Program-made: the position numbers and the translations under genes | In this document: positions 18,996 to 63,660 of the stretch, one piece after another | Layout: every line of letters begins with the position of its first letter | Position numbering within the stretch: the stretch's first letter is position 1 | IMG/VR virus record: IMGVR_UViG_3300034257_000053 | Location: 5,486 to 69,485 of that record | DNA from: a virus | DNA length: 64,000 nucleotides | Strand: one strand, 5' to 3' | The notes under the pieces: generated by a model | Told to the model about the DNA's origin: nothing | The model's database searches: none | What the model saw: the letters and a program-made list of their open reading frames with translations, nothing else

Positions 18996-19276
18996 GCGCG
19001 CGGCAATGGCGGCCGGTGCTCACGCCTGCGCGGGGCCGGTGGCTGCGTACGCTGGCGCGCGAGGGCGTGGCGAAACGCGGCCGCGGCCGCACCGGCTTTG
19101 AGTGCATGCAGCTCCGCTGGACCACCTGGCTCTACCGCCTGCCCAGCGGCAGCGTGGTGACGTACGCCGAGATCGACCAGTTGAAGAAAGAGACGCCCGA
19201 GATCTGGACCGACGCGGTGAACATCGGCGAGGTGCTGACCGAGGAAGGCCGGCGCGTGCTGCGAGGTGGCTCATGA
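18992..19276 (+). CDS. Hypothetical protein
   Basis: ATGA overlaps. Confidence 0.6.
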   Translation: MSARQWRPVLTPARGRWLRTLAREGVAKRGRGRTGFECMQLRWTTWLYRLPSGSVVTYAEIDQLKKETPEIWTDAVNIGEVLTEEGRRVLRGGS

Positions 19277-19608
19277 GCCGGGAACCCGAGCGCGGCCGTC
19301 TCCACGCCCAAGAGATCGCGGATGCGATCGATCAGGCGCTCGCTGCTGGCGATGCGGTGTTCGAACAGGAGTGCGGCGACAGCTATTTGACTTTGAAGTG
19401 GCGCGGCTGGTCGATCGTGTTCTTTCTCGACGCGGGCGACTGCGACTACGTCGAGAAGGCAAGCGATCCCAACCTGCGCGTCGCGGAATCGGACGTCGAC
19501 TGGTTCAACGGAGAGGACCCGCCGCGGCCCGAGCCGCTCGACCTGCGCGACACGCATTCGAGCGACATCGTGATCGCGGCCGAGAAATATCTCGGGAGGC
19601 CGCTGTGA
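19273..19608 (+). CDS. Hypothetical acidic protein
   Basis: GAGG RBS; ATGA overlap. Confidence 0.6.
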   Translation: MSREPERGRLHAQEIADAIDQALAAGDAVFEQECGDSYLTLKWRGWSIVFFLDAGDCDYVEKASDPNLRVAESDVDWFNGEDPPRPEPLDLRDTHSSDIVIAAEKYLGRPL

Positions 19609-19925
19609 ACGTCATCGCGCGCGGGTTCATCGGTACGCGTATTTCGGTGGTGGTGCGCAGTCGGCGACGCCCGGTGGCGCGGCGGAGCCAGCGCCTTGCG
19701 GCGATATTCAGGATGATGACCGAACAGCGCGTTCGCGTGGTGCGTGCGCTCGCCGGCCAGGCCGAAGGATTGTCGGCGGCGCAGATCGGCGACCTGTGCA
19801 AGATCGCGAGCCACGAGCTCGATCCGCTGCTGGTGCGGCTGACCGCGCGCGGAAAGATCGTTGCGGTATGGGACCATGCGCGCATCGCGCGCCGCCGGCT
19901 GTACCGGTCCTGCACCAAGACTTGA
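19605..19925 (+). CDS. Winged-helix protein
   Basis: GLSAAQIGDLC...LLVRL..RGKI; GTGA overlap. Confidence 0.55.
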   Translation: MNVIARGFIGTRISVVVRSRRRPVARRSQRLAAIFRMMTEQRVRVVRALAGQAEGLSAAQIGDLCKIASHELDPLLVRLTARGKIVAVWDHARIARRRLYRSCTKT

Positions 19926-20045
19926 TGGGGAAATAAGCAGATGCAGCACGATCAACACGTCAAACGCTACATCCGTTATTGCCTTGTGATGGCGACGATG
20001 GGTCATCCGCTGTGGGGATGGCTGCCAGCCGCGTAGGATACTGCA

Positions 20046-20261
20046 GTGAAGCAACCGTGGCTTTCATGCGCTGACTGCGATCTGCCGTATTCTGACGATG
20101 GCTTTGCCGACTTCGTTGTGTCGGACGACGTTTGGAAGCGGATCACGGCCGACGATGGCGCGAACATCCTCTGCGCCAATTGCATGATCCGGCGGGCGGT
20201 ACGCGTGGGCATCGAAACTGCGAGCGGAAAATTCACGTCCGGACCTTTTGCGGTCCCGTGA
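20046..20261 (+). CDS. Small Cys-rich protein
   Basis: CADC...DFVVSDDVW...LCANC. Confidence 0.55.
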   Translation: MKQPWLSCADCDLPYSDDGFADFVVSDDVWKRITADDGANILCANCMIRRAVRVGIETASGKFTSGPFAVP

Positions 20262-20274
20262 TGCGGGGAGCACA

Positions 20275-20604
20275 GTGACGCCGCCGGTCCTGTTCAATCG
20301 CTTCATGACGCTCGCCCGGCTGACGCGCGGCGATCGCATCATCTGGCAGCATCGCGGTGATGAGTGCACGCCGGAGGCGGTGTGGTGGGATCAGCCGCCG
20401 CAGATGGGCCGCCCGGTGCTCTGGCTCTCGACGGTGAAGTTGTTTCAGCGGCGCGCGCTGATCATCAAGACGGACCTGCGGCCGGCAACCGCGAACATCC
20501 GCCGGGACTGGACACACGCCAGTCTCTATGTGGCGACGCCTGCCGCCACCGATGCCTGGCTTGCCATGGACACGCCGGCGGGCGTGCCGAAGGGCGCACG
20601 ATAA
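20275..20604 (+). CDS. Hypothetical protein, last gene of rightward block
   Basis: GGGGAG RBS before GTG; converges on the leftward operon. Confidence 0.5.
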   Translation: MTPPVLFNRFMTLARLTRGDRIIWQHRGDECTPEAVWWDQPPQMGRPVLWLSTVKLFQRRALIIKTDLRPATANIRRDWTHASLYVATPAATDAWLAMDTPAGVPKGAR

Positions 20605-20605
20605 C

Positions 20606-20809
20606 TCAGGTCTGCTTGTTGCAGGTGTGAACGATGCCGGTGCAGCCGCACGATGGCGGTGCGGGCTCGATCCCCGGGCCGACAATCATCTTGGTGAGGG
20701 TCTGCTCGGCCAGCTTGTCGAGCTTTCGCGCGATGTGCCGCCGGGTCGTCGCCCGAAGGCGGCCCGGCAGGTCGAGATCGGCGACGATGTGGCGTCGGGT
20801 GATCTGCAT
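20606..20809 (-). CDS. Hypothetical protein
   Basis: TGATG overlap; AAGGAG RBS. Confidence 0.5.
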   Translation of the reverse strand: MQITRRHIVADLDLPGRLRATTRRHIARKLDKLAEQTLTKMIVGPGIEPAPPSCGCTGIVHTCNKQT

Positions 20810-21141
20810 CAGGAGCGCTCCTTGCCGCGTGCTTTCAGGCACCGACTCACGTCCTCGCCGGCAAGGCGTAGCATCGTGCGGGCGCGTTCGTCGAGCCGCG
20901 CAGTCAGGTCCGCGGTGAACGGTGGTAGCCCGGCGAGCGCGGCGGTGAGGCCGAGCAGCTCCAGATGCGACAGCTTGCGGGAGCCGCGGTTCATCGCGCC
21001 GGCCACCTGGTTGCCGAGCCCGACCGACGCACCCGCCTCGGCGACCTGCTTGCCGTTGAAGCCCATGGCGTCGCGCCACGCCGCGAACGGTGTCGCCGGA
21101 ATATTTTCGGGAATTTTTGTCGCGCGTTTCGGCTTAGCCAT
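20809..21141 (-). CDS. HTH-like regulator
   Basis: FAAWRDAMGF.GKQV.EAG..VGL resembles XRE-type HTH proteins. Confidence 0.55.
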   Translation of the reverse strand: MAKPKRATKIPENIPATPFAAWRDAMGFNGKQVAEAGASVGLGNQVAGAMNRGSRKLSHLELLGLTAALAGLPPFTADLTARLDERARTMLRLAGEDVSRCLKARGKERS

Positions 21142-21487
21142 CGTTGCACCTGCAATAGTACGGGCTGCGCTGGCAGTTCGGGCAGACCTTGAAGAACGGC
21201 CGGTTGATAGGTCGTGAATAGCCCACGCAGTGCGCCGACTCGGTGAACTCTTGCTGGGGCACGCCGTCGGTGAAGCCGACAACACCCCATTTGGTCGTTA
21301 CGAGATACGTGTCCTGCCAGTCAACGCGTTCGCCGTGTCGATGGAATTTGAGGTCGGCGAGTTCGATGCCTGGCCCCACGCCCGGCAGTCCTCGCACGTG
21401 CGTGAGCAGATCGGGCCAACTCGCGAACTCCTGCATGGTGGTTAGCGCTTCGGCAAGGCTGCCGCGTTGCTCGCGAAACTTGATCAT
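21134..21487 (-). CDS. Hypothetical protein
   Basis: KFREQRGSLAEAL..M, W.DTYLVT..VVGFTDG; GGAGG RBS. Confidence 0.6.
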   Translation of the reverse strand: MIKFREQRGSLAEALTTMQEFASWPDLLTHVRGLPGVGPGIELADLKFHRHGERVDWQDTYLVTTKWGVVGFTDGVPQQEFTESAHCVGYSRPINRPFFKVCPNCQRSPYYCRCNDG

Positions 21488-21909
21488 GCCGCTGCCCTCC
21501 CTGCACAGTCGGCGCGGTGGCCCGTGGCGGGGTCGATGCCGCGCTCGCGCTGGCTTTCCCACCATTCGGGAGCGAAGGCGCCGAACATCGGTTTCCAGCC
21601 CGCTACTCTTGCACCACACGATGGGCATTCGCCACGGGTCGCCGCCTCCAACCGACGCACCGGCTCGGCCATCTCTCGCCCCTGCGGCGAAGGCTCGGCA
21701 TCGTAGCGCCGCCAGTGAACGCGCACGCCTTTGTGGCCGGAGCGGGTGACCTCCTCGAACCAATCGACGACCACCGGGAAATTCAGCGTGCGCCCGACAT
21801 GTTCGCGCGAATTCTCGACTGACATTGAGAACGCGCCCCGCGACTGTTCGCAGTCGATCTCGAAGATCTCGGTCATGATGTCGGTGGCGGGATCAGGTAG
21901 GGCGCTCAT
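21484..21909 (-). CDS. Hypothetical protein with CxxC
   Basis: GGAGG RBS; ATGA overlaps; CPSC. Confidence 0.6.
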   Translation of the reverse strand: MSALPDPATDIMTEIFEIDCEQSRGAFSMSVENSREHVGRTLNFPVVVDWFEEVTRSGHKGVRVHWRRYDAEPSPQGREMAEPVRRLEAATRGECPSCGARVAGWKPMFGAFAPEWWESQRERGIDPATGHRADCAGRAAA

Positions 21910-23300
21910 GCTGCCCTCCCGATCAGCGACCACAGCCACGCGATCGGCTTCGGCCTGGCCGGTGGCGTGCCTGGCGTTGGGGGCTTCGGCGCTGCCGGCG
22001 GCCGCGGCAGGTCGCCCCGCTCGGTGAGCCGCTCGACGAACGCGTCGAACTGCGCCTCGCGGCTCGTCTCGCGCCCGTAGCGCGTGCGCAGCGGGCAGGC
22101 CCGCATCAGCGCGTCACGTTCGAAATCCGAGACCGGACCGATCTGCGCGGCGGGCGGTGCCACCATCACGCGCTCGACCGGTGTCGGCGTGCCGTCGAGG
22201 GCGAGGAACGAGACCAGCGCCTCGCCGGTGCCGAGCGCGGTGACGGCCTCGGTGACCTTGAACGCCGGGTTGGGGCGGAAGCCGTCCTCGATCGCCTTCA
22301 AGGTGCGGCGGTCCTTCGGGGTGAACACGCGCAGCGCATGCTGCACGCGATTGCCGAGCTGGGCGGCGACGTTGTCCGGCACGTCGCGCGGCGACTGCGT
22401 CACGAAATAGACCCCGACGCCCTTCGAGCGGATCAGGCGCACGACTCGCTCGATGGTTTCCAGAAGGCGCGGTGAGGCCTCGGCGAACAACAGGTGCGCC
22501 TCGTCGAAGAAGAACACGAGCTTGGGCTTGTCGAGATCGCCCGCCTCGGGTAGCACATTGAACAGCGAGGAGAGCAGCCACAGCAGGAAGGTGCCGTAGA
22601 GCCGCGGCGTATCCATCAGCCGATCGGCGTGCAGCAAGTTGATGATGCCGCGGCCGTCCTCGTCGGTGCGCAGGAAATCATTGATGTCGAGCGCGGGCTC
22701 GCCGAACAGGTTGTGCCCGCCCTGCGCCTCCAGCACCAGGATGGCGCGCTGGATCGTGCCGATCGACGTGCTGGAGATGTTGCCGTAGGACGCGCGGATA
22801 TCGTCGGCGAAGTCCGGCATCAGCGAGAGCCTGGCGCGCAGGTCGTGCAGGTCGCACATCGGCACGTTCTCGCCCCACGGCGACCATCTAAACGCGATGT
22901 TGAGCACGCCTTCCTGCGTTTCGTTGAGCTTGAGCATGCGCGCGAGCAGCAGCGGCCCCATTTCGTGCACGCTGGTGCGGATCGGCAGGCCCGCATCGCC
23001 CCACAGGTCCCAGAACACGACGGGGAATTTCTCTGGCGTGCGTGCGAGCCCGAGCGCGGCCGCACGGTCAGCGGCTTTGCCATCGAATGCGCCGGCGGCG
23101 GCAAGGCCGGAGAGGTCGCCCTTGATGTCGGAGGCGAACACCGGCACGCCGGCGCGGGAGAACTCCTCGGCCAGGCGCTGCAAGGTGACGGTCTTGCCGG
23201 TGCCGGTCGCGCCGGTGACGAGACCGTGGCGGTTGGCGAGCCGCAAGGGCAGCGCGATCGCGGTGCCGGCGGCGGTGAGCCCGAGGGTGATGGCGGTCAT
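21906..23300 (-). CDS. DUF853/YjgR-family HerA-like ATPase
   Basis: ANRHGLVTGATGTGKTVTLQ, DIKGDLSG, FFFDEAHLLF, RLIRSKGVGVYFVTQ.P.D.P, QLGNRVQHALR. Confidence 0.93.
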   Translation of the reverse strand: MTAITLGLTAAGTAIALPLRLANRHGLVTGATGTGKTVTLQRLAEEFSRAGVPVFASDIKGDLSGLAAAGAFDGKAADRAAALGLARTPEKFPVVFWDLWGDAGLPIRTSVHEMGPLLLARMLKLNETQEGVLNIAFRWSPWGENVPMCDLHDLRARLSLMPDFADDIRASYGNISSTSIGTIQRAILVLEAQGGHNLFGEPALDINDFLRTDEDGRGIINLLHADRLMDTPRLYGTFLLWLLSSLFNVLPEAGDLDKPKLVFFFDEAHLLFAEASPRLLETIERVVRLIRSKGVGVYFVTQSPRDVPDNVAAQLGNRVQHALRVFTPKDRRTLKAIEDGFRPNPAFKVTEAVTALGTGEALVSFLALDGTPTPVERVMVAPPAAQIGPVSDFERDALMRACPLRTRYGRETSREAQFDAFVERLTERGDLPRPPAAPKPPTPGTPPARPKPIAWLWSLIGRAA

Positions 23301-23497
23301 GATCCGCTCCGTTTCTGTGCCGAGCTGGGAACGGCATCATGAATGCGAGAGATCGTGCCATCGAGCGAGGATAAAGCCTCATTCGCCGACGCAAGTTCGC
23401 TGTCCATGTCCGCTGTGATGGTCACGCCAGCCGACGTGAGTGCCAGTCGGATGTAGTGATCGTAGATGCTCGCCGCTTTTGTGAAGTTGATCGCCAT
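23297..23497 (-). CDS. Small hypothetical protein
   Basis: AGGAGG RBS plus leader hairpin; ATGA overlap with the ATPase gene. Confidence 0.7.
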   Translation of the reverse strand: MAINFTKAASIYDHYIRLALTSAGVTITADMDSELASANEALSSLDGTISRIHDAVPSSAQKRSGS

Positions 23498-23514
23498 GGT
23501 CGTCCTCCTGTTCT

Positions 23515-23532
23515 GCCCGCAGGATCGCGGGC
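23515..23532 (-). repeat. Leader hairpin A copy (GCCCGC-GATCCT-GCGGGC)
   Basis: Identical to the copies at 26261, 26918 and 27259; just 5' of the RBS. Confidence 0.9.
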
Positions 23533-23544
23533 GGCGGTGAAATC

Positions 23545-24138
23545 TCAGTTCTCGTCCCTGCGGCCCGGCATCGGCATGCCGGGGCGCGACTTGATGATCG
23601 GGCGGTAGTCGGCGGCCCAGGCGAGGCGGGTCGCATCGTCGTCGGGCAGGTTCTTGCCGGCGCGAAACTCCTCGTAGGGCGTCGGCACCAGCTCCATCAC
23701 CTCCGGGCGGTGGCCCGAGGCCATCCACGCATCGAGCAGCCGCGCGGTGAACAGCAGGTGCGCGGAATTGAACTGCATCCACGCGTGCCAGTCCGGCGCA
23801 TAGTCGCGGAACGCGCCGTCGTTCGGGAACGTGATCAGGAATGCGGGCGGCGCGCCCTGCAAAGAGGCGTCGATCTCCCGGTTGACGCGCACGAGCAGGC
23901 CTTCCAGCAGGTCGACGTGCCCCTGGAAGGTGAACCACGTGCGGCTGCGCTCGATCTTGCGCACGTCGTCGGCCGAGAGGCCGCCGAGCAGCCCGCCCAA
24001 CTCCTCGCGCGTGTAGCCGAGCAGGTTGCGCATCGCGCGCAGGTCGGCAGGCGTCGGCATCGGTCGGGCTCCGGTGGCGGCCGGACTATCGACGAGGCGG
24101 CGCGCGGCGGCAAGGCTGGTTGCGAGGGCCCGGGTCAT
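23545..24138 (-). CDS. XRE-HTH protein, Aca2/YdiL (DUF1870)-like; alternative start at 24060
   Basis: DLRAMRNLLGYTREELG...DVRKIE HTH followed by LITFPNDGAFRDYAPD, resembling the recalled YdiL C-terminal part. Confidence 0.6.
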   Translation of the reverse strand: MTRALATSLAAARRLVDSPAATGARPMPTPADLRAMRNLLGYTREELGGLLGGLSADDVRKIERSRTWFTFQGHVDLLEGLLVRVNREIDASLQGAPPAFLITFPNDGAFRDYAPDWHAWMQFNSAHLLFTARLLDAWMASGHRPEVMELVPTPYEEFRAGKNLPDDDATRLAWAADYRPIIKSRPGMPMPGRRDEN

Positions 24139-24323
24139 GACGCTGCGTCCCGCAAGCATTGCCGCTCGAACCGCAGTTCGGCGTCGCAGTCGCGCCAGCC
24201 TTGGCGCTCCTGCGGCGACCGGCAGGACTTCCTCGCGCCGCCGTCATAGCGCCGCCAGTAGCCACGATCGTAGGGGTGACGCTCGATCACGATGCCTCGG
24301 CGGGCGGTGCGGGTGCGGGTCAT
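24135..24323 (-). CDS. Small Rmf-like protein
   Basis: YDRGY...G..KSC....RQGW. Confidence 0.4.
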   Translation of the reverse strand: MTRTRTARRGIVIERHPYDRGYWRRYDGGARKSCRSPQERQGWRDCDAELRFERQCLRDAAS

Positions 24324-24613
24324 GACTCGGGCTCCGCTTTCTTGCGCGAGGCCGATGCGCTCGCCTTCTCGATGGCGATCTGCGCCTGGCAGTGCGCGAT
24401 GTTGAACTCCAGCAGCGCGATCATGATGGGCACGTTGATCGTCTGGCCCTGCGCCAGGCCGAACTCGGCCATCGCTGCGGCGGTGACGGAAACGCGCTGA
24501 CCATCGAGCATGACGAAGGCAATGCGCCCCTCGTCCATGCCGCGCTCGCACTCGATAAGCGCGCGGATTTCGTCCTCGGTGAATCGTCGAGGGGGGGGGG
24601 CGTCGGTTGTCAT
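24320..24613 (-). CDS. Hypothetical protein
   Basis: GGAG RBS; ATGA overlaps. Confidence 0.6.
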   Translation of the reverse strand: MTTDAPPPRRFTEDEIRALIECERGMDEGRIAFVMLDGQRVSVTAAAMAEFGLAQGQTINVPIMIALLEFNIAHCQAQIAIEKASASASRKKAEPES

Positions 24614-24909
24614 CGCTTTGCTCCCCGGTAGTAATCCTCGGGGACCGCGCGCTGTACCAGCAACGCCGCGCGGAACCATTCGGTGCCGAGCCGCTCGACC
24701 GCTTCGAGCATGGTGTAGCCGTTGCCCTGCTGGAACAGGTCAGGACGGTCGAGCACGAGCGCGACGGCAAGGCTTTCGCCGGTGGAGAACACACCGATGC
24801 GCCTTTCGTCGGCACGTACAGCATCGACCAGTTTGAGGATGCGCTCGGCGGCGTCGGTGACCGGATCGACGGGGTTGGCTGGCGGTTGTTTTGGCTGGCG
24901 GATCGTCAT
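24610..24909 (-). CDS. Hypothetical protein
   Basis: STGE.LAVALVLDR.D......YTM.EA..RLG..W; AGGAGG RBS. Confidence 0.7.
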   Translation of the reverse strand: MTIRQPKQPPANPVDPVTDAAERILKLVDAVRADERRIGVFSTGESLAVALVLDRPDLFQQGNGYTMLEAVERLGTEWFRAALLVQRAVPEDYYRGAKR

Positions 24910-25160
24910 GGCCTAACCTCCTGCGCGCGCGTTGTGCCAGCGGTGGTGAGCCGATAGGCGGGATCGCCAAGGCGCGTCGTGCCCCATGGCTCGATCAATC
25001 CGAGACCGAGAAACTTGTCGGCGATGAGATCGCCGAACAGCGTGCGGTGCACGCGGTCGCCGAACGCTTCCTTGCCGCCGTGCGTGTTGATCGACCATCT
25101 CGTGTAGCGCAGCAGGTAGAGCTCGTAGTCGGTGAGGGGGGGGGTGCCGATTTCAGTCAT
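24906..25160 (-). CDS. Hypothetical wHTH-like protein
   Basis: LGLIE...YRLTTAG; ATGA overlaps. Confidence 0.6.
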   Translation of the reverse strand: MTEIGTPPLTDYELYLLRYTRWSINTHGGKEAFGDRVHRTLFGDLIADKFLGLGLIEPWGTTRLGDPAYRLTTAGTTRAQEVRP

Positions 25161-25735
25161 GATGCCACCACCGGCTTCACCGCGTTCATGATGATCTTGG
25201 TGCGGTCCTCAATAAGCACCCCGGGCAAGGTTGGGCCGAGCGCGCGAGCGGCCTTGAAGGCGTCGGCCTTGCGGGTGAACTTGCGCCATCCGCCTTTTTG
25301 CCCATTCGGTGCGACGCAGTTTGGGTCATAGCCGACCATCAGGGCGTAACGCTCACCGGCCACGTCGACGAGGCGGGCGACATAGTAGTCGTGACCGCTG
25401 ACATAGGTTGCGAGCACGACCGCGTAGAGCGGTTCGGCCTCGACGCGCGCCATCAGCTCGCGCGCGGCGCGGATCATGCACCAGAGGGCGGTGGCCTCGC
25501 CGTTGAGGTAGTCGTCGCTGAGATCGGCCAGCACGTCATCCTCGGTGACCGTCGAGAGGGGCCGCCGGTAATCCTTGGCGTATTCGCGCCGCCGCTCCAG
25601 CAGTTCCGCAGCGTCGGTCGGTGTGGTGCAGCGCGCCATGCCACTCACAAATTTCTGGAGCTCGGTCACGAGATCGGTGGCCGATGCGATTGCCGGCAAC
25701 GGCGGTGCGGCGGGCTTTGCGGTGATGTCGTTCAT
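25157..25735 (-). CDS. Hypothetical protein, C-terminal domain paralogous to 28771-29136
   Basis: GGAG RBS; shared F..K.DAF..AR.LGP.LP motif. Confidence 0.7.
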   Translation of the reverse strand: MNDITAKPAAPPLPAIASATDLVTELQKFVSGMARCTTPTDAAELLERRREYAKDYRRPLSTVTEDDVLADLSDDYLNGEATALWCMIRAARELMARVEAEPLYAVVLATYVSGHDYYVARLVDVAGERYALMVGYDPNCVAPNGQKGGWRKFTRKADAFKAARALGPTLPGVLIEDRTKIIMNAVKPVVAS

Positions 25736-26238
25736 CGTGCCGCTCCCTTCGCGATGATGTCACCGCGCGAGGCGTGGCGGTGCGCGCCTTCGGCCGACTT
25801 GATCGCACGGGCGACGTAGTCGGCAGCGCGCTGGCTGCCGCAGGTGCGCAGCATGTCGCGTGCGCTGCGCAGGTGACCGATGGCTTTGGTGATGATGCCC
25901 GGTCGCGTCGGCGCGCTGGCCGCTACGGTGATGTTGAGGCGCTCGCACAGCGCATCAATGTCCTCGACGGTCAGCTCGGTGATGGTGTTGCTAATGGTCG
26001 CGATGTCGGCAAGGTCCGCGTCCCACGGTGCCCGCTGGTAACAGCGCAGCCCCGCCAGCACGGTGGCAAGCTCGCGATCATCGAGCGCATGCGGCCGGGC
26101 CGCGAGCGCGCTGCACGCGGCTTCGATGGCGATGTCCCATTCGGCGGGGTCGAGCGCGGAGCCTTCGGCTGCGCACGACTCGGCGGCTTGGAGCCGCAGG
26201 TCGCGCAGGGCGGCGGTGAAACGTTCGGTGTCGTTCAT
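25732..26238 (-). CDS. Hypothetical protein
   Basis: AAGGAGG RBS plus leader hairpin; RELATVLAGLR.YQ...IDALCERLN. Confidence 0.75.
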   Translation of the reverse strand: MNDTERFTAALRDLRLQAAESCAAEGSALDPAEWDIAIEAACSALAARPHALDDRELATVLAGLRCYQRAPWDADLADIATISNTITELTVEDIDALCERLNITVAASAPTRPGIITKAIGHLRSARDMLRTCGSQRAADYVARAIKSAEGAHRHASRGDIIAKGAAR

Positions 26239-26260
26239 TGGAAGTTCCTCCTTGTGGGCT

Positions 26261-26278
26261 GCCCGCAGGATCGCGGGC
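26261..26278 (-). repeat. Leader hairpin A copy
   Basis: GCCCGC-GATCCT-GCGGGC upstream of the RBS. Confidence 0.9.
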
Positions 26279-26285
26279 GGTCGGG

Positions 26286-26900
26286 TTAAGCTTTGCCAGC
26301 GGCGCGCGCGTGTTTCTGTGATGGCGCGCCCGCCAGCTTGCGGCGGATCACCTCGGCGAGGTTGATGCCAGGCGCATCGGGCGCGCCGTGGTTGGCTACC
26401 GCAGCGGCTTCCTCGCGGCCGTCACCCTGCGTCACGTCGGTGAGATCGGCCGCGTCCGCACCGTCGGTGTCGTAGTCGATCACCCATGCGTCACCGACCG
26501 CACCGGGGCGGTCGGTCACGATGTCCTGCACCATGCCGCCTTCGAGCACGATGGCGATTGTCGGTGGCGTTGCGCCAGAGACTGCCAATTCGTTGACCCA
26601 TACGTCGGCATCATCGTCGTCGAGGTCGAACGATGCGCCCGCCTTAACGGCGATGCCCAAGTCGCGCGCGCGTTTGCGGCGCGCCTGTAGCAGCGAGGCT
26701 TCCCAATTGGCGGTGGTCGCGGTCGGCTTCAAGTCGACATCCGTCCGGAGAAGATTGACGTAGGCGGCGGCGGCGGTGTTGGCATCGGCGCGCGTCGCGT
26801 ACGCCATCATCGGCTGGCCAGGCGTAAACCAATGTGTGGCCTGCAGGATGAAAACGGCGGGTGGCGGCGCGGTGACCGGCTTGGCCTTTGATTTTGTCAT
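26286..26900 (-). CDS. Hypothetical protein
   Basis: GGAGG RBS plus leader hairpin; IAIVLEGGMVQDI...VIDYDTDG. Confidence 0.75.
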   Translation of the reverse strand: MTKSKAKPVTAPPPAVFILQATHWFTPGQPMMAYATRADANTAAAAYVNLLRTDVDLKPTATTANWEASLLQARRKRARDLGIAVKAGASFDLDDDDADVWVNELAVSGATPPTIAIVLEGGMVQDIVTDRPGAVGDAWVIDYDTDGADAADLTDVTQGDGREEAAAVANHGAPDAPGINLAEVIRRKLAGAPSQKHARAAGKA

Positions 26901-26917
26901 GATGGTCCTCCAGTTCT

Positions 26918-26935
26918 GCCCGCAGGATCGCGGGC
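26918..26935 (-). repeat. Leader hairpin A copy
   Basis: GCCCGC-GATCCT-GCGGGC-AGAAC-RBS. Confidence 0.9.
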
Positions 26936-26946
26936 GACGGTGTGTT

Positions 26947-27243
26947 TCAGCCTTTCGACATCGGGAGGCCGGAGATCCGGCACAGTTCGGCGGCTACCTG
27001 TTCCGCGCGGGAACGGGTAGGGCAATCGGTGATCGCTTCGGCCTCGCCGCTATGGTGGCGGCCGTAGACGGTGAAAAACTCCGCCTCCGCGTCATCGGTG
27101 AGCAATCCGATGGTATGGCCCGGATCGGCGGGGTCATCCTTGCAGGCACCGATTTCCAGCGTGGCGAACTGCGACCATTCCGGCGCGCGGTGGTCCGTGC
27201 AGTTGTTGAATAGATCGGAGGCGGTGAAGGTCTCGGTGGTCAT
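26947..27243 (-). CDS. Small acidic hypothetical protein
   Basis: AGGAG RBS plus leader hairpin; EAEFFTVYG. Confidence 0.75.
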   Translation of the reverse strand: MTTETFTASDLFNNCTDHRAPEWSQFATLEIGACKDDPADPGHTIGLLTDDAEAEFFTVYGRHHSGEAEAITDCPTRSRAEQVAAELCRISGLPMSKG

Positions 27244-27258
27244 TCGTGCTCCTGTTCT

Positions 27259-27342
27259 GCCCGCAGGATCGCGGGCCGGTGGCGGTGGCGTTCCGGGGTG
27301 CACCGGGCGGGCATTGTTGCCCGGTGCACGGCCGCAACGTCG
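27259..27342 (-). repeat. Element B (variant inner stem, 27285-27342) plus hairpin A (27259-27276)
   Basis: Same flanks as the 28719 and 29589 copies; inner stem GTGCACCGGGC/GCCCGGTGCAC. Confidence 0.85.
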
Positions 27343-27345
27343 CCG

Positions 27346-28677
27346 CTAGACGCGCATCGGCATGAGAACGAACAGCGGGCCGCTATTGTCCGCCGCGCGC
27401 ACCAGCGTCGGCGAACCGGGATCAGCGAGCATGAGGGTCACACGCTCGCCGCCGACCTGTTCCAGAATGTCGGCGAAGTAGCGGCCATTGAATCCGATGT
27501 CCATCGGATCGCCGGACCAGTCGCATTCGATCTGCTCGCGCGTGTCGCCCGCGTCGGGGTTTTGCACGGTGAGGGTGAGGCGGTTGCCCTCAATCGAGAA
27601 CTTCACCGCGCGACCGCGCTCGCTCGATACGGTGCTCACGCGGTCGACGGCCGCCGCCAGCTCACCAAGGTCGACGGTGAGGCGGTGCGGGTTGCCGAGC
27701 GGGATCACGCGCCCATAGTCGGGGAACGTGCCGTCGATCAGCTTTGAAATCAGCGTGACGTTGCCGCTGCTAAAGATGATGCCAGCCGGACCGACCGACA
27801 CGGTCAACATGACCGACGGCGCGGCAGTCTCGCCCTTTTTCGCCTTGCGCGGCTTGGTGCCGAACATCGCGATCACGCAATCGACCGCCTTGCTGGGCAC
27901 GATCACGCCCGGCATGTCGGCCGCGCCCTCGGGCATCGCCATATCGACCTGGGCCAGGCGGTGGCCATCGGTCGCGACCATGCGCAACGCGCCGGGGTTG
28001 CCGTTGTAGCGCTGCACGCCATTCGACTTGATCGCGTGCAGGTAAATGCCGTTCAAATAATAGCGGGTTTCCTCTGTCGAGATCGCGAAGCGCGCGCGTC
28101 GCAGCGCATTGCAGAATGTCAGCGCGTCGACCGTGAAGGTCGCGGGCGCGGCAAACTCGCGATCCTTCGGCCAATCGGCGGGCAGCGCGGTGGAAAGCGC
28201 GCCGTTTGATGCGCCAAGGCGCACCGCCACCCGGCCGGGGTTGACGGTGTACCATGGCGCGGCGTTCGCGGGCTTGTGCTCGATCTTCTCCGGCTGTTTC
28301 GTGATGTCGAGTGCGACGGTATCGGCTCCGGACTTGCGCAGCATGTCGCGGAACATGTGAGCCGGGACCGCAAGCGCGAAGCCCGCGCCGACGGTGGCCG
28401 GGATCGTGACGCGCGCGGTCAGGTCGAGATCGGTGGTTTCGATCATGAGGCCGCCGCCATGCTCGCGCAGCAGCACATTCGACAGGATTGGAATCGTGTT
28501 GCGCTTTTCGGTGACGATGGTGGCGAGCTGCATCGCGCTTGCGAGCGCGGTACGGTCGACGCGCGCGGATGGTAGCGGCGCGGGGTTTTCATTCGCGGCC
28601 AACACCGCCGCGATGTCCGCCACGATGGCGGGCGGCGCGACGGTGGCGGTGGCAAGGTTTACGCGGTCCTGTTGCAT
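27346..28677 (-). CDS. dnaN: DNA polymerase III beta sliding clamp
   Basis: EKRNTIPILSNVLL, TDLD, FAISTEETRYYLNG, VATDGHRLA, SKLIDGTFPDY.RVIP, IGFN..Y, terminal VLMPMRV. Confidence 0.95.
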   Translation of the reverse strand: MQQDRVNLATATVAPPAIVADIAAVLAANENPAPLPSARVDRTALASAMQLATIVTEKRNTIPILSNVLLREHGGGLMIETTDLDLTARVTIPATVGAGFALAVPAHMFRDMLRKSGADTVALDITKQPEKIEHKPANAAPWYTVNPGRVAVRLGASNGALSTALPADWPKDREFAAPATFTVDALTFCNALRRARFAISTEETRYYLNGIYLHAIKSNGVQRYNGNPGALRMVATDGHRLAQVDMAMPEGAADMPGVIVPSKAVDCVIAMFGTKPRKAKKGETAAPSVMLTVSVGPAGIIFSSGNVTLISKLIDGTFPDYGRVIPLGNPHRLTVDLGELAAAVDRVSTVSSERGRAVKFSIEGNRLTLTVQNPDAGDTREQIECDWSGDPMDIGFNGRYFADILEQVGGERVTLMLADPGSPTLVRAADNSGPLFVLMPMRV

Positions 28678-28697
28678 GTCGACTCCTTTCAGTAAGC

Positions 28698-28773
28698 CCC
28701 GCACGATCGCGGGCGCTTGGAACACTGGCGTTCCGGAGTGCAGCGCGCGAAGCGCTGCACGGTCGCAACGTCA
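28698..28773 (-). repeat. Element B (28719-28773) plus hairpin A (28698-28713)
   Basis: 55 bp with one mismatch to 29589-29643; hairpin loop GATCGT. Confidence 0.9.
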
Positions 28774-29136
28774 GTTCTGCGGGACGGGCGGCACCTTGAA
28801 GGCGAAGCCTTCGGGGCGCGTGTAGTCTTTCACGTGAACGTCAGGCAGCACCGGCCCGAGCGAGCGGGCATAGGTGAAGGCATCGCGCTTGTTGCCGAAC
28901 TGCACATGCCAAGACTTCCCGTCAGAGATCGGGAACACGTAGTCGGTGAGATCGAGCGTGACCACGCGGCCGACGGTGTACGCAGGGCGCCGCGTGTGCG
29001 TTTGAATGACCGCATAGCGGCGCGGCTCGGTCGCATCGCACGGGTGCGGCGCGTCGGCGGCCAGGCGGTCGAATAGCGCCGCCACGGCTTCATTGCTTTG
29101 GCGCGCGCGGGCGATCTTGTTGGGGTCAAGGTTCAT
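28771..29136 (-). CDS. Hypothetical protein
   Basis: ATGA overlap; paralogous to the C-terminus of 25157-25735. Confidence 0.7.
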   Translation of the reverse strand: MNLDPNKIARARQSNEAVAALFDRLAADAPHPCDATEPRRYAVIQTHTRRPAYTVGRVVTLDLTDYVFPISDGKSWHVQFGNKRDAFTYARSLGPVLPDVHVKDYTRPEGFAFKVPPVPQN

Positions 29137-29549
29137 GCCACGCCCCAGCCGGATTCGCGGCCGCCCATGCTGTTGCTGGTGCCGGATTTCAGATGCAGGT
29201 GCAGCACGTAGCCGCGCGGGTCTCCGCCGACGCTGGCGGTTGCGCTGTATTGCGCGGCGATCAAGTCGGCCGCGGCCTTGATGCGCTTTTCCGCCTGTTC
29301 CGCGCGGGCTTCATCTTCATCGGTCCAATCGGGGAAGCGCCCGCCGCGCGTGGCGTCGTAACGCTCGACACCATTGCACCGCTGCACGGCCAGGCGCGAC
29401 GCGCGCAAGCCGAGTCGGCGGAGTGTGATGGCATCGTCGGCGATCATGAACGGAGCCGGGTTCGTGCGATCCGGTACGCCATGGCCTAACGCGATTTCGC
29501 GGGCGAGAAGCGCAGCCAGCTCGGCGGTCGCCCTAGTTTTTGCGTTCAT
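29133..29549 (-). CDS. Conserved phage hypothetical protein (CNG...GDPRG motif)
   Basis: GGAGGA RBS plus leader hairpin. Confidence 0.75.
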   Translation of the reverse strand: MNAKTRATAELAALLAREIALGHGVPDRTNPAPFMIADDAITLRRLGLRASRLAVQRCNGVERYDATRGGRFPDWTDEDEARAEQAEKRIKAAADLIAAQYSATASVGGDPRGYVLHLHLKSGTSNSMGGRESGWGVA

Positions 29550-29566
29550 CGTCATTCCTCCAGTCG

Positions 29567-29643
29567 GCCCCAGCACAATCGCGGGGCGGGAACAGTGGCG
29601 TTCCGGAGTGCAGCGCGCGAAGCGCTGCACGGTCGCAACGTCA
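29567..29643 (-). repeat. Element B (29589-29643) plus hairpin A (29567-29587)
   Basis: Repeat of 28719-28773; hairpin loop GATTGT. Confidence 0.9.
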
Positions 29644-29946
29644 CGTTCCTGCGAAACAATCGACCATGAACGTCGGCCGACGATTCTTATCGGGCGCGGG
29701 CACGAAGCCGGGAGGAGCTGCGGCCTTGGCCGCCTTCTGCTGATCCTTGTATTTCCGCTCGCATGCGCGGCACTTGTCCATCTCCACATCGGTCGCGGCG
29801 TACGACGGCGCGGCGGATGCGAGCGTGCCAAGGGTGAGCATGACGGCAAGCGCACCGTTGAGCCAGGCGCGCTTTCCGGTGAGCACGAAGCGCCGCACGC
29901 GGCGACGGTCGTTGTGGCTTTGGCTACTGCGGCGAGTGTGAGACAT
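29641..29946 (-). CDS. First gene of leftward operon; exported/membrane protein with CxxC
   Basis: GGAGG RBS; hydrophobic segment ending ASAAPSYA; CRAC. Confidence 0.65.
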   Translation of the reverse strand: MSHTRRSSQSHNDRRRVRRFVLTGKRAWLNGALAVMLTLGTLASAAPSYAATDVEMDKCRACERKYKDQQKAAKAAAPPGFVPAPDKNRRPTFMVDCFAGT

Positions 29947-29964
29947 CGTGTTTCCTCCAGTGAC

Positions 29965-30013
29965 GCCCCAGCACAATCGCGGGGCAGGTCCATGCCGACA
30001 TGATCGCGGCATG
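29965..30013 (-). repeat. Tandem leader hairpins A (29991-30013 and 29965-29985)
   Basis: CATGCCGC-GATCAT-G(T)CGGCATG and GCCCCGC-GATTGT-GC(T)GGGGC. Confidence 0.8.
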
Positions 30014-30017
30014 AACG

Positions 30018-30046
30018 TATAATATGTATTCTCATATTATAGTCAA
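30018..30046 (-). promoter_or_regulatory. Leftward sigma70 promoter with overlapping palindromic operator
   Basis: -35 TTGACT (30046-30041), 16 bp spacer, -10 TATTAT (30024-30019); TATAATATG-N6-CATATTATA at 30018-30041. Confidence 0.75.
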
Positions 30047-30399
30047 GCCTTCAGGGTGAGAATAGTGGGAAAGATTATTGCTTTTTGATTCGTCAAATGC
30101 CTGTTGTCCGGACAAGGTGGGTTTGACGGGCGAGCGCTTTCCCCCCTCTATGGCCACTATCACCTCTAGAGTCGGACAGTCGCGCGGGCCGGTGCAGTGC
30201 ACCGAGCTCGAGATGGCCAGGCGCGACCGTCGCCCAACTCCTCAACCTGACAAGTGCCGAGCAGCTCCGCCCGAAGGTAGGGCGGGCGATCTGCTGGCGT
30301 GTGTGCCATGGCGTGCCCGCCTCGTCCTTCGCTGCAGGCACAGCCCACGTGCGCCGCTGCGCAACTGTGCCGGCATCTAGCGCCAATCACTCGCCGCGC

Positions 30400-30480
30400 G
30401 GGTCCTTACCCGCCGGCGGGGGACCCGCGATGCCGTCGCGGCCCGTCGCTTGAGCGTATTTGGAACGCGAAAATTTTCAC
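30400..30480 (+). other. Candidate lambda-like cos packaging site
   Basis: GGGTCCT (lambda cosQ sequence) at 30400, dyad CCGCGA-N5-TCGCGG at 30425-30441, then GAAAATTTTC; gpA-type terminase downstream. Confidence 0.55.
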
Positions 30481-30809
30481 TTCGCTTCGTTTTCGGTCGA
30501 ATGCGATCGATTTCGTCATGAGCCGATCGAGGAGCCCGTACGGATTTCGGTCGCCCCCCGATCCAAAAGCGGTGCGAGACGGTCGGTTCTTGAGGAAATC
30601 GAGGAATTTGGGCGCTTGAAGCGCCGCGTTCCGGTGGTCGGAGCCCGGAGCAATGTCGGTGACGATGAGCACCGCGGCCGCCTGCGCCGGCAGGAGCGCA
30701 GATTTTTCCAAGACCCCATCGGCTTCGGCCGACGGCGGGGTCGATGACGGCACCGAGGGAGGTCGTCGTCTTGGAAATGGTGCGGCTCACTTCCGCGCCA
30801 TTTTCGTTT

Positions 30810-30886
30810 CGCGGGATAGCGCAGCCCGGTAGCGTGCTTGGCTCATAACCAGGAGGTCGCGAGTTCAAATCTCGCTCCCGCAACCA
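30810..30886 (+). tRNA. tRNA-Met(CAT), initiator-like, phage-encoded
   Basis: Cloverleaf, CTCATAA anticodon loop, TTCAAAT T-loop, encoded CCA, C1xA72 mismatch. Confidence 0.93.
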
Positions 30887-30985
30887 AGTTGCCGGTGCAG
30901 GTTCACGCGCCGCGTCATTCAACGCCCGTCAAAAGGCGGACGCTTACCAGCCCCACTACGAGGGCCCCGGCACCGATAGGTCACG

Positions 30986-31534
30986 ATGCTCAAGATTCAG
31001 GTCCGCGCCGAACGTATGGGCGATCTCGGCACGTTCGTGCGCCGGCTCGACTCTCCGGAGATGCGCATCGCCGGTGCGCGCGGCTTGAACGAGCACATCC
31101 GGCAGCAAGAAAAAGATTCGATCGCGACGGTGTCGGGGCAAACGCGCGTTCCGGCATCGCGGGTCAAGTCGATCTCGCGTGTGAGACTTACATCGCCGTC
31201 GGCGTTCATGAGCGCGGCGGTCGAGTTTCGCGACAAGGCGATCCCGCTAGGCGAATACACCTATCGCGCCTGGTCGCGTTCGATGCCTGGCGCGCGCGCC
31301 GGCGATTGGGGTGGCAAGACGCACAAGGGTGCGTTCACCGTCTCGCGCTACGGCGGCCGCATCTTCAGGCGTACCGGCAAGTCGCGATTTCCGATTCAGC
31401 AGTTGTGGGGGCCGGTGCTGCCGAACGAATTGTTGCGGCGGGACATGCCTAACCTACGACAGCGCGAGGCGTTCGCGGCGCGCGATCTCGAGCAACGCGT
31501 GTTGCGCAACATGCTTCACGTTTTTGGTTTTTGA
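30986..31534 (+). CDS. Lambda gpZ-like minor tail/completion protein
   Basis: ARGLN, IPL..Y, KGAF, IF.R.GKSRFPI.QL.GP. Confidence 0.65.
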   Translation: MLKIQVRAERMGDLGTFVRRLDSPEMRIAGARGLNEHIRQQEKDSIATVSGQTRVPASRVKSISRVRLTSPSAFMSAAVEFRDKAIPLGEYTYRAWSRSMPGARAGDWGGKTHKGAFTVSRYGGRIFRRTGKSRFPIQQLWGPVLPNELLRRDMPNLRQREAFAARDLEQRVLRNMLHVFGF

Positions 31535-40063: not shown

Positions 40064-40467
40064 TGCCCTCGCGGTTTGCAACCGAATTGGCGGCTCGGTC
40101 TCCAGTTCTCGACGATTATTTCGGCGAGATGCTGCGGATCGAGCCGCAATCGGAGGGCGGGGAGTTCCTTGCCGAAGGCGCCGATCCTGATCGCCCGGCA
40201 TACGATATCGTCGGCACGTTCCGGCCCAAGACCTCTCTCGTGCCGATGCGGCAGACGCTCGGCGGTTCATCGGCCGATGCGGTGAACGTTACCGCGTCGC
40301 TGGACCATTTCAGTTTCCTCAAGTCGGTGCTCGGCGATCCCGCGCGCTGGCCGCGTGCGGGGGACCGTATCGTGCGCACGGAAGAACCGGGCACGCCGCG
40401 CTTCAAGGTCTCGCGCGTGTTCGATGACGGGCTCGTCCGGCACGGCTGCGTCGTGGTGCCGGTCTAA
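40063..40467 (+). CDS. Head-tail joining protein
   Basis: Position; PR.GDRI motif. Confidence 0.6.
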   Translation: MPSRFATELAARSPVLDDYFGEMLRIEPQSEGGEFLAEGADPDRPAYDIVGTFRPKTSLVPMRQTLGGSSADAVNVTASLDHFSFLKSVLGDPARWPRAGDRIVRTEEPGTPRFKVSRVFDDGLVRHGCVVVPV

Positions 40468-42788: not shown

Positions 42789-42794
42789 TCGACG

Positions 42795-43712: not shown

Positions 43713-43721
43713 GAGGGCGCG

Positions 43722-63585: not shown

Positions 63586-63660
63586 TGGTGCTGCCGGTAA
63601 GGATTGAACTTACGACCTCCCCCTTACCAAGGGGGTGCTCTACCACTGAGCTACGGCAGC
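63586..63660 (-). tRNA. tRNA-Thr(GGT), probable integration site
   Basis: GCTGCCG/CGGCAGC acceptor stem, CCCCT-TGGTAA-GGGG anticodon arm, TTCAATC, CCA. Confidence 0.96.

What the first reader, a model, noticed from the sequence alone, without database searches (positions are those of the whole stretch)
23515..30013. Eight copies of a leader hairpin with a conserved GAT(C/T)(A/C/G)T loop
On the coding (-) strand, GCCCGC-GATCCT-GCGGGC occurs at 23515, 26261, 26918 and 27259. Variants have loop GATCGT at 28698, GATTGT at 29567 and 29965, and GATCAT at 29991. Seven copies sit a few nt 5' of a Shine-Dalgarno, and the eighth is tandem at the predicted transcript start. Every gene in the operon preceded by an intergenic gap has one, while overlap-coupled genes do not. 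Stems vary while still pairing and the loop is conserved, the signature of a protein-binding RNA site (translational operator, boxB-like antiterminator or processing site).
Basis: partly seen in the sequence, partly recalled or inferred. Interest (0 to 1): 0.8.

Follow-up and report, generated by a model that had tools for sequence, protein, structure and literature searches.

The report
Repeated RNA hairpin before phage genes
A soil-type phage puts the same small hairpin just ahead of the ribosome-binding site of every separately translated gene in its early operon. Several distant phages keep the same loop while the stem letters change in matched pairs, so it is very probably a shared RNA control signal whose reader is still unknown.

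Summary
Eight hairpins lie at the stated coordinates, all on the minus strand and all intergenic. Seven end 5-9 nt before a Shine-Dalgarno sequence; the eighth sits at the predicted 5' end of the transcript. All 7 genes with a gap have one, and none of the 12 overlap-coupled genes does.

The main new result is that the element is a family. Five other viral records (G001, G002, G003, L351, L352) carry 4-15 copies each in the same position. Across 59 copies every stem pair shows compensatory changes, the three apical pairs are never broken, and loop letters A-U are invariant (AUNG in 54 of 59). There is no Rfam match, no host-wide spread, no internal promoter and no phage RNA polymerase among the proteins scanned.

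Best reading (0.55): an mRNA hairpin read by a trans-acting factor that sets ribosome access or mRNA stability for each independently initiated cistron. g13 is an HTH protein weakly like SO3848, a structural homologue of Aca2, but three hairpin-bearing records lack it.

Closest known: cluster K mycobacteriophage SAS/ESAS and the Aca2/Aca1 5'-UTR RNA motifs.

Earlier notes of this scan report what looks like the same kind of element on other DNA (Bradyrhizobium- and Mesorhizobium-type prophages). I did not check those records.

The parts
30019..30046 (-). Sigma-70-like promoter TTGACT-16-TATTAT, the only such site on the - strand in 20000-30400
   Evidence: 10 of 12 matches to consensus; sequence
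29991..30013 (-). Hairpin copy 1 (tetraloop AUCA, bulged U) at the predicted 5' end of the transcript
   Evidence: (MFE fold)
29965..29985 (-). Hairpin copy 2 (loop AUUG, bulged U); ends 6 nt before the SD of g1 (29641-29946)
29567..29587 (-). Hairpin copy 3 (loop AUUG, bulged U); ends 5 nt before the SD of g2 (29133-29549)
28697..28714 (-). Hairpin copy 4 (loop AUCG) before the sliding-clamp gene g4 (27346-28677)
27259..27276 (-). Hairpin copy 5 (GCCCGCG AUCC UGCGGGC) before g5 (26947-27243)
26918..26935 (-). Hairpin copy 6 before g6 (26286-26900)
26261..26278 (-). Hairpin copy 7 before g7 (25732-26238)
23515..23532 (-). Hairpin copy 8 before g14 (23297-23497), the first gene after the g8-g13 overlap-coupled block
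29596..29642 (-). Element B copy 1: longer irregular hairpin that starts at the stop codon of g1 and ends about 10 nt before hairpin copy 3
28726..28772 (-). Element B copy 2, after the stop of g3
27286..27341 (-). Element B copy 3, after the stop of g4; conserved flanks, inner stem exchanged
23545..24138 (-). g13, 197 aa: HTH plus a C-terminal domain weakly like SO3848 (PDB 2OX6, a structural homologue of Aca2). Candidate reader, not shown.
24135..24323 (-). g12, 62 aa, 24% arginine with an arginine-rich N-terminus. Speculative RNA-binding candidate.
   Evidence: no family hit
20606..29946 (-). Coding part of the operon, 19 genes. Includes the sliding clamp (27346-28677) and a HerA-like ATPase (21906-23300); the other 17 genes have no family of known function (g13: weak HTH only; g5, g10, g17: PHROG families of unknown function).

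Best explanation
The eight elements are copies of a cis-acting RNA hairpin in the polycistronic early/replication mRNA of a myovirus-like phage. Each copy marks the 5' edge of a ribosome-binding region: hairpin, 5-9 nt, SD, start codon.

The stem needs only to pair. The apex is fixed: a C-G or G-C pair, an R-U or G-C pair, then a tetraloop A-U-N-G/C/A. I infer that a trans-acting factor common to several phage lineages reads the apex. That factor could be a host protein, the ribosome, or a phage protein I could not detect.

I further infer that binding, about 18-35 nt upstream of the start codon, sets 30S access and/or protects the downstream cistron from 5'-dependent decay. All independently initiated genes of the operon would then be tuned together, while overlap-coupled genes follow their upstream neighbour.

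Where the gap is long, a second structured element (B) precedes the hairpin and may be a processing or 3'-protection site.

Shown: the hairpins, their positions, the covariation, the loop conservation and the recurrence in other phages. Inferred: the RNA level, the existence of a reader, and the effect on translation or stability.
For: 1. Position. 7 of 7 gap-preceded genes and 0 of 12 coupled genes have a hairpin. The hairpin end lies 5-9 nt from the SD. Across the four whole records G000-G003, core to start codon is 28.8 +/- 3.2 nt (n=44 hits, one of them a coding false positive).

2. Recurrence. G001 has 15 copies, G003 12-13, G002 10-11, L351 4 and L352 9. All are on the coding strand of an operon that, except in L351's 20-kb locus, also holds a clamp gene.

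3. Covariation on 59 copies:
- pair 10-15: AU 47, GU 10, GC 2
- pair 9-16: CG 50, GC 9
- pair 8-17: GC 27, CG 23, UA 8, GU 1
- pair 7-18: paired in 53 of 59
- 90.8% of cells paired against 59.8% in shuffles, with 0 of 500 shuffles reaching this
- slid controls give 27-59% paired
An orthologous site also differs by a double change: G001 GGUCA..UGACC against G003 GGCCA..UGGCC, both before a 56-aa ORF.

4. A selection that ignored pairing (core + SD + start + ORF) still gave complementary flanks in 14 of 14 operon hits in G001, 8 of 8 in L267 and 5 of 5 in the window.

5. Loop. A11 and U12 are invariant in 59 of 59 copies. Tetraloops: AUCG 29, AUUG 13, AUAG 6, AUGG 6, AUCC 4, AUCA 1.

6. Sense-strand fold. 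15 of 295 cells are G-U wobbles, and 3 window copies carry a one-base bulge.

7. Transcription. One sigma-70-like promoter on the - strand and no canonical terminator in the gaps. The first hairpin follows the predicted -10 directly in G000, G001 and G003.

8. Not a general repeat. The exact 18-mer occurs only singly elsewhere. Model hits are scattered in three alphaproteobacterial genomes.

9. Precedent. HTH regulators Aca2 and Aca1 bind hairpins in 5' UTRs, and Aca2 blocks the ribosome-binding site (PMC13551039, passages read).
Against: - There is no expression, 5'-end or binding data. No RNA run was listed for the G001 stretch I asked about, and I did not ask for the window itself (see Tried and rejected).
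- No candidate reader is shared. Only the clamp is common to G000-G003 and L352 by BLAST. The g13 family is in G000, L351 and L352 but not in G001-G003.
- A fold in single-stranded DNA would give the same covariation.
- The copies were gathered partly with sequence patterns. Copies within a genome are related by duplication, so the shuffle control overstates independence.
- The hairpins of G001-G003 are weak (-4 to -9 kcal/mol).
- Two G002 copies break the second flanking pair.
- The direction of the effect (repression, activation, stabilisation) is a guess.
Confidence: 0.55

Rival explanations
1. Passive RNA element. The hairpin is a 5' stabiliser and RBS insulator that needs no dedicated reader. 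It blocks 5'-end-dependent RNase E or RNase J attack and scanning, and keeps the SD free of upstream GC-rich coding RNA. The loop is conserved only through common descent or folding kinetics.
For: The first copy lies at the very 5' end of the predicted primary transcript in G000, G001 and G003. The SD is unpaired in 4 of the 7 MFE folds of the gaps (TSS-g1, g1-g2, g5-g6, g6-g7) and partly or wholly paired in g3-g4, g4-g5 and g13-g14. Element B upstream could be a processing site that leaves the hairpin near a new 5' end. 5'-terminal stem-loops that stabilise mRNAs (ompA, ermC/aprE leaders) are established knowledge; I recall this and looked nothing up.
Against: Loop letters A-U are invariant in 59 of 59 copies, while every stem position has flipped between lineages whose clamps are only 38-45% identical. 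That is hard to explain without sequence-specific recognition. The 4-bp hairpins of G001-G003 (-5 kcal/mol) are weak barriers.
Confidence: 0.2
2. DNA-level site. The motif is a promoter or operator, possibly used as an extruded or single-stranded DNA hairpin, for a phage or host DNA-binding protein such as the HTH g13 or a modified RNA polymerase. Each gap would then start a new transcript with a short SD-containing leader.
For: Some gaps hold a strong hairpin (B, or terminator-like stems in G001) directly before the motif. That is the classic terminator-promoter order. The motif lies a promoter-like distance ahead of the SD. ESAS repeats of cluster K mycobacteriophages were judged more likely to be DNA sites (PMC3203893, passages read).
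Against: None of the 39 window proteins scanned matched an RNA polymerase or sigma family, and the large ORFs are virion proteins. The half-site of a dimer would be only 2 fixed bases. Compensatory changes at every stem pair, plus G-T positions and one-base bulges, are not expected for a duplex DNA site. There is no conserved -35-like partner at fixed spacing (read by eye).
Confidence: 0.1
3. Cassette junction. The hairpin-plus-SD unit is mainly a recombination substrate, like the PeSLs of T4-type phages. It lets unrelated accessory genes be swapped in and out, and its conservation reflects homogenisation rather than a regulatory reader. This could co-exist with a regulatory role.
For: Genes behind the hairpins are mostly orphans and differ between records; only the clamp is shared by G000-G003 and L352. 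The g1-g2 and g3-g4 gaps are nearly identical over about 60 nt. PeSLs mediate modular shuffling between otherwise unrelated genes (PMC4122927, abstract read).
Against: Identity between lineages is limited to 4-6 nt of the apex, too short for homologous recombination. Covariation shows selection on pairing. The fixed distance to the start codon points to expression. No promoter lies inside the unit, unlike PeSLs.
Confidence: 0.1
4. Host-wide REP-like repeat or chance palindromes unrelated to start codons.
For: GC-rich palindromes are common. The exact 18-mer occurs once each in many unrelated GC-rich genomes.
Against: There are 8 copies in 6.5 kb against 1.3 core matches expected in 64 kb. All copies are on one strand and intergenic. 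The G001-type 12-mer occurs 0-17 times per strand in each of 301 genomes, against 11 in 13 kb of G001.
Confidence: 0.02

Closest known systems
[quoted passage not shown] 2011, PMC3203893; passages read)
   Same: Many copies (11-19) in one orientation. Restricted to the non-structural arm. Placed just before start codons of genes from unrelated families. Absent from the host genome. Function still unknown (PMC12699233, passages read).
   Different: SAS is a 13-bp asymmetric word that contains the SD itself. ESAS inverted repeats do not support RNA pairing, and the authors favoured DNA binding. Here the element lies upstream of the SD, is a true covarying hairpin, and only its apex is fixed. The hosts are Actinobacteria there, and probably Alphaproteobacteria here (nearest cultured-phage hits).
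Aca2 and Aca1 RNA motifs in 5' UTRs of anti-CRISPR operons (PMC13551039, passages and section 18 read; Aca2 structure PMC8434428, passages read)
   Same: Small hairpins between the transcript start and the SD. A promoter with an inverted repeat. An HTH regulator encoded in the operon. Two hairpins in tandem at the 5' end, as for the Aca2 dimer. g13 weakly resembles SO3848, which is one of the two best structural homologues of Aca2.
   Different: Aca motifs sit only in the 5' UTR of a short operon. Here a copy precedes every independently translated gene (8-15 per operon). No acr gene is recognised. There is no Rfam hit. Three hairpin-bearing records lack the g13 family. Binding is untested.
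PeSL promoter-terminator cassettes of T4-type phages (PMC4122927 abstract read; PMC2839356 seen in search listing only)
   Same: A short repeated composite motif with a stem-loop between small orphan early genes, with gene content changing around it.
   Different: PeSLs carry an early promoter and a terminator. Here I found one promoter for the whole operon and no U-tract terminators. The conserved part here is only the hairpin apex.
Phage translational operators and intercistronic processing sites: T4 gp43 and RegA operators, lambda boxB, T7 RNase III sites (recalled from general knowledge, not looked up)
   Same: RNA hairpins close to ribosome-binding sites or between early cistrons that are read by proteins.
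   Different: The gp43 operator is a single copy. RegA sites are unstructured. boxB occurs once or twice per operon with boxA and an N protein. RNase III needs about two helical turns, whereas hairpin A has 4-8 pairs; only element B, with 19 predicted pairs, comes near that.

Membership tests
Any Rfam 15 family | Match to a curated covariance model | tested here: not met
   cmscan at E<=1. Window 19000-31000 gave only a tRNA and two chance hits. L218 and L340 gave one chance hit.
Cluster K SAS/ESAS | 13-bp word GGGATAGGAGCCC that includes the SD, 3-7 bp before the start | tested here: not met
   The sequence is different, and the element ends 5-9 nt before the SD. Consensus taken from PMC3203893.
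Cluster K SAS/ESAS | Many copies, one orientation, non-structural arm only, directly upstream of starts of unrelated genes | tested here: met
Aca2-type RNA motif system | Hairpin(s) in the 5' UTR between the transcript start and the SD, downstream of a promoter with an inverted repeat | tested here: met
   Two tandem hairpins at 29965-30013 follow the promoter at 30046-30019. The inverted repeat over the spacer and -10 is visible.
Aca2-type RNA motif system | Aca2-family HTH regulator (HTH plus the Aca2/YdiL/SO3848 dimerisation domain) encoded in the operon | tested here: inconclusive
   The g13 profile hits SO3848 (2OX6) at E=0.0042 over residues 77-172, and the Aca3 HTH at E=0.033. HTH_3 is found in 5 of 6 family members. 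The AlphaFold model was too poor to test the fold (pLDDT 53.7).
Aca2-type RNA motif system | The regulator binds the RNA hairpins and blocks the ribosome-binding site | not testable with these tools
   Needs EMSA and toeprinting.
Lambda-type nut site (boxA-boxB) | One or two sites per operon near the promoter, acting on downstream terminators | tested here: not met
   There are 8 copies, one before each independently initiated gene. No canonical terminators in the gaps.
Intrinsic terminator | GC-rich hairpin followed by a U tract | tested here: not met
   None of the 7 terminator-like sites in 20000-30400 coincides with a hairpin. The count equals the shuffle expectation.
REP/REPIN-like host repeats | Tens to hundreds of copies spread over the host chromosome, not tied to starts | tested here: not met
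   The host of G000 itself is unknown, so it could not be searched.
PeSL | An early promoter inside each unit | tested here: not met
   Only one sigma-70-like site on the - strand.
RNase III processing site (T7 type) | About 20 bp of irregular duplex | tested here: not met
   Hairpin A has 4-8 pairs. Element B has 19 predicted pairs and remains open.

The most novel reading that the evidence does not exclude
The hairpin is the operator of an operon-wide translational regulon. One RNA-binding factor recognises the A-U-N-G apex on 8-15 sites per mRNA and switches a whole swappable set of early accessory and replication genes on or off after transcription. The factor might be an Aca2-like HTH such as g13 or an arginine-rich small protein such as g12 in this lineage, or a conserved host protein. 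This would be an uncatalogued class of cis-regulatory RNA shared by diverse temperate phages of Alphaproteobacteria, extending the Aca2 principle from one 5' UTR to every cistron.
Probability: 0.35. Interest if true: 0.8.

Novelty: new variant of a known kind. Interest (0 to 1): 0.62.

Why it matters
Repeated start-associated motifs in phage genomes have been known since 2011 (SAS/ESAS) and remain unexplained. This family gives an unusually clean case:
- a tiny hairpin whose fold is shown by compensatory changes at every pair
- a fixed loop
- a fixed distance to the start codon
- a simple rule: present before every uncoupled gene, absent before coupled ones

That makes the open question directly testable with reporter fusions and pull-downs. 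What reads such motifs, and do phages control whole early operons at the level of translation? If a reader exists, it could also serve as a portable handle for co-regulating many genes on one mRNA.

Tried and rejected
- Close relatives by DNA. blastn of 23200-30100 against GenBank phages gave only four short clamp or hypothetical-gene patches.
- Exact 18-mer or 20-mer scans of viral, genome and metagenome collections gave only single, unrelated hits. L087 looked promising, but its match lies inside a coding sequence.
It did yield L267.
- The search for related loci with the G001 clamp found only G001 itself.
- Sinorhizobium phages AP-16-3 (half of the genome) and NV1.1.1 (8.8 kb) lack the motif.
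- tblastn of g13 against GenBank phages: no match.
- ECF-type or sigma-54-type promoter readings were considered and dropped, because the spacing to upstream GGAAC-like words is inconsistent (read by eye).
- Loop pairing with the SD or with the 16S 3' tail was considered and dropped, because it fits only the GAUCC loops and not the AAUNGU loops of the other lineages (reasoning only, no rRNA fetched).
- Structure of g13: the model had pLDDT 53.7 and pTM 0.34. That is too poor for a fold search, so I ran none.
- The HTH of G001 (129 aa) hits only generic XRE repressors in the PDB.
Alternative frames of GC-rich DNA are all arginine-rich, so that scan is noisy.
- Sequencing runs: for L218:6000-15990, kind rna, no RNA holder was listed. 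I made no such query for the window and did not use read laying.
- The 301-genome pattern survey was too noisy to find further prophages and serves only as background.
- Literature searches that found no description of this element. Supplements of the papers were not opened.

Full report
**The observation**

- Four are the exact 18-mer GCCCGC-GATCCT-GCGGGC, at 23515, 26261, 26918 and 27259.
- One differs by two letters (28697-28714).
- Two have the loop GATTGT and a bulged U in the 3' arm (29567-29587 and 29965-29985).
- One has a longer stem, the loop GATCAT and a bulged U (29991-30013).

The shared core CCGCGATYNTG occurs 12 times in the 64-kb window, against 1.30 expected (100 shuffles, largest 6). 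Eight of those 12 are these copies, all on the minus strand.

**The setting**

The window is bases 5486-69485 of a 69,485-base IMG/VR virus record (G000), estimated 93% complete. It encodes a large terminase, portal, major head protein, tail sheath, tail proteins and an endolysin on the plus strand. A plus-strand block holds a C5 methylase, Dam-like methylases, DnaG primase, DnaB helicase and DUF1643.

The hairpins lie in a minus-strand operon of 19 genes that I called by hand. It runs from g1 (29946) to g19 (20606). It holds a DNA polymerase III beta clamp (g4) and a HerA-like ATPase (g15). The remaining 17 genes have no family of known function: g13 gave a weak HTH hit, and g5, g10 and g17 hit PHROG families of unknown function.

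The only sigma-70-like promoter on that strand between 20000 and 30400 is TTGACT-16-TATTAT at 30046-30019. No hairpin coincides with a terminator-like site.

Seven genes are preceded by a gap of 46-102 nt or by the 5' UTR, and all seven carry a hairpin that ends 5-9 nt before the SD. The twelve genes whose start overlaps the preceding stop have none. The eighth copy starts at the predicted transcript start.

**Not a general repeat**

The exact 18-mer occurs only once per contig in every other collection:
- 8 viral contigs
- as the 20-mer, 9 metagenome stretches

The contexts are unrelated. One that looked similar is coding sequence.

**Relatives**

No close relative was returned; records very near the window's own genome may be left out of these collections, as the tool notes say. 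The best clamp relatives are 45% identical.

A k-mer screen of the 80 clamp loci flagged L037. Its record G001 is a 113-kb provirus at 57% GC. It has 11 copies of GCCAATNGTGGC on one strand within 13 kb. A wider look found 15 copies of nnCAATNGTGnn, each 5-8 nt before GGAG and a start codon.

A selection that used only the 8-letter core, an SD, a start codon and an ORF, and that ignored pairing, gave 14 operon copies in G001, 8 in L267 and 5 in the window. Every one had complementary flanks.

A covariance model built from 31 copies then picked out G002 (84-kb provirus, 10-11 copies) and G003 (the record of L267, 12-13 copies).

Homologues of g13 led to two more records:
- L351 (67% GC) has four copies and two B elements.
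- L352 (59% GC; L353 is an identical locus) has nine copies of nnGGAAUNGUCCnn before starts.

**The fold**

I aligned 59 copies from six records without gaps. Counts per pair:
- tetraloop-closing pair (10-15): A-U 47, G-U 10, G-C 2
- next pair (9-16): C-G 50, G-C 9 (all nine in L352)
- next pair (8-17): G-C 27, C-G 23, U-A 8, G-U 1
- fourth pair (7-18): paired in 53 of 59
- fifth pair (6-19): paired in 38 of 59

Overall, 90.8% of cells pair against 59.8% in shuffles, and 0 of 500 shuffles reach this. Slid controls give 27-59%.

Two caveats apply. Copies within a genome are related, and I found them partly with sequence patterns. The pairing-blind selection and an orthologous double change between G001 and G003 speak against a pure artefact.

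Loop letters A and U are invariant. The tetraloops are AUCG 29, AUUG 13, AUAG 6, AUGG 6, AUCC 4 and AUCA 1. The window's own copies are the ones that leave G at the fourth position.

Fifteen of 295 cells are G-U wobbles, and three window copies need a one-base bulge. Both features fit a fold of the sense strand better than a duplex DNA site.

Stability is -12.5 to -13.6 kcal/mol in the window and -4 to -9 in most G001-G003 copies; two G002 copies with a broken flank pair fold only at -1.7 and 0.0 kcal/mol. In G000-G003 the core lies 28.8 +/- 3.2 nt before the start codon (n=44, including one coding false positive).

**A second element**

After the stops of g1, g3 and g4 there is a longer irregular hairpin, element B, with conserved flanks (GACGUUGCGRCC ... 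CCGGAACGCCA). Together with the two B copies of L351 it has 19 predicted pairs, 8 of them with compensatory changes, and the inner stem is exchanged wholesale.

B begins at the stop codon and ends about 10 nt before hairpin A. I read it as a processing or 3'-protection site, but that is a guess.

**Who reads the hairpin?**

By BLAST, only the clamp is shared by G000-G003 and L352. That is partly an ascertainment effect, since I found the relatives through the clamp. G001-G003 share DUF3150, an AAA_5 ATPase and a DUF2201 protein, and G000 has none of these.

A note from the first stage suggested that g13 is Aca2-like. I tested this partly:
- A profile of six family members hits SO3848 (PDB 2OX6) at E=0.0042 over residues 77-172, and the HTH of Aca3 at E=0.033.
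- HTH_3 is found in 5 of 6 members.
- Aca2 and Aca1 bind hairpins in their own 5' UTRs (PMC13551039).

Against g13 as the common reader, an HMM of the family finds it in G000, L351 and L352 but not in G001-G003. Those three records keep the same loop. The AlphaFold model of g13 was too poor to use. g12 (62 aa, 24% Arg, arginine-rich N-terminus) is a second, purely speculative candidate.

A reader common to all lineages is more parsimonious. It could be a host protein, the 30S subunit, or a phage protein below my detection.

**What it is not**
- No Rfam family matches.
- No RNA polymerase or sigma factor appears among the 39 window proteins scanned. Promoters of a phage enzyme are therefore unlikely.
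- There are no U-tract terminators.
- It is not a chromosome-wide repeat. Model hits are scattered, 6-13 per genome, in three alphaproteobacterial genomes. The G001-type 12-mer occurs 0-17 times per strand in each of 301 genomes.

**Comparison with what is known**

The nearest described phenomenon is the SAS/ESAS system of cluster K mycobacteriophages. It shares the copy number, the single orientation, the non-structural arm and the start association. It differs in that the motif includes the SD, and its inverted repeats do not support RNA pairing (PMC3203893). Its function is still open (PMC12699233).

The nearest mechanism is Aca2/Aca1, which is confined to one 5' UTR. PeSLs of T4-type phages share the setting between orphan genes but carry promoters (PMC4122927, abstract).

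My searches found no paper that describes this hairpin. Supplements were closed.

Earlier notes of this scan report what looks like the same kind of element in Bradyrhizobium- and Mesorhizobium-type prophages, one of them with the loop written RAYNGU. I did not examine those records, so they are agreement and not evidence.

**Verdict**

This is a real, strongly covarying, start-linked hairpin family, most likely acting in the mRNA and read by an unidentified factor. In this window it shows up as eight copies plus three B elements. I rate it a new variant of a known kind, with interest 0.62.

Noticed in passing
window 29596-29642, 28726-28772, 27286-27341 (- strand); L351 7596-7650 and 8218-8273: Element B is a second structured intergenic element. 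It starts at the stop codon of the upstream gene. Its flanks are conserved and its inner stem is exchanged wholesale. It has 19 predicted pairs, 8 of them with compensatory changes, across 5 copies in 2 phages.
   Followed up: partly
window 25130-25142 and 24590-24600 (- strand): Runs of 9 and 10 C lie a few codons after the start codons of g9 and g11. They could be slippage-prone tracts or assembly uncertainty.
   Followed up: no
L354 (Sinorhizobium phage NV1.1.1) upstream of starts at 3504, 5190, 5756; also L063, L070, L071: Gap-preceded genes carry CACCACCAC-type C/A-rich tracts just before the SD instead of the hairpin. The hairpins of G001-G003 and of the window are also preceded by C-rich or ACC-rich runs.
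   Followed up: partly
window 4985-5114 and 5564-5693 (+ strand): A 130-nt direct repeat at 90% identity (family D2).
   Followed up: no
window 41996-42135 and 42149-42288: A 140-nt tandem-like direct repeat at 84% identity inside the virion-gene block (family D1).
   Followed up: no
window 30810-30886 (+) and 63586-63660 (-): tRNA-Met (CAT) lies just upstream of the operon's promoter region on the other strand. A tRNA-Thr (GGT) lies near the end of the window.
   Followed up: no
window 30019-30046 (- strand): The promoter spacer and -10 hexamer hold a perfect 8-bp inverted repeat (ATAATATG ... CATATTAT), a likely operator. Its sequence is unrelated to the hairpins.
   Followed up: partly
G001 15489-16610 and 42625-43755; G003 11020-12114 and 40433-41848: These provirus records each hold two clamp genes. 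Only the one inside the hairpin operon is preceded by the hairpin. The other may be the host dnaN in flanking DNA.
   Followed up: no
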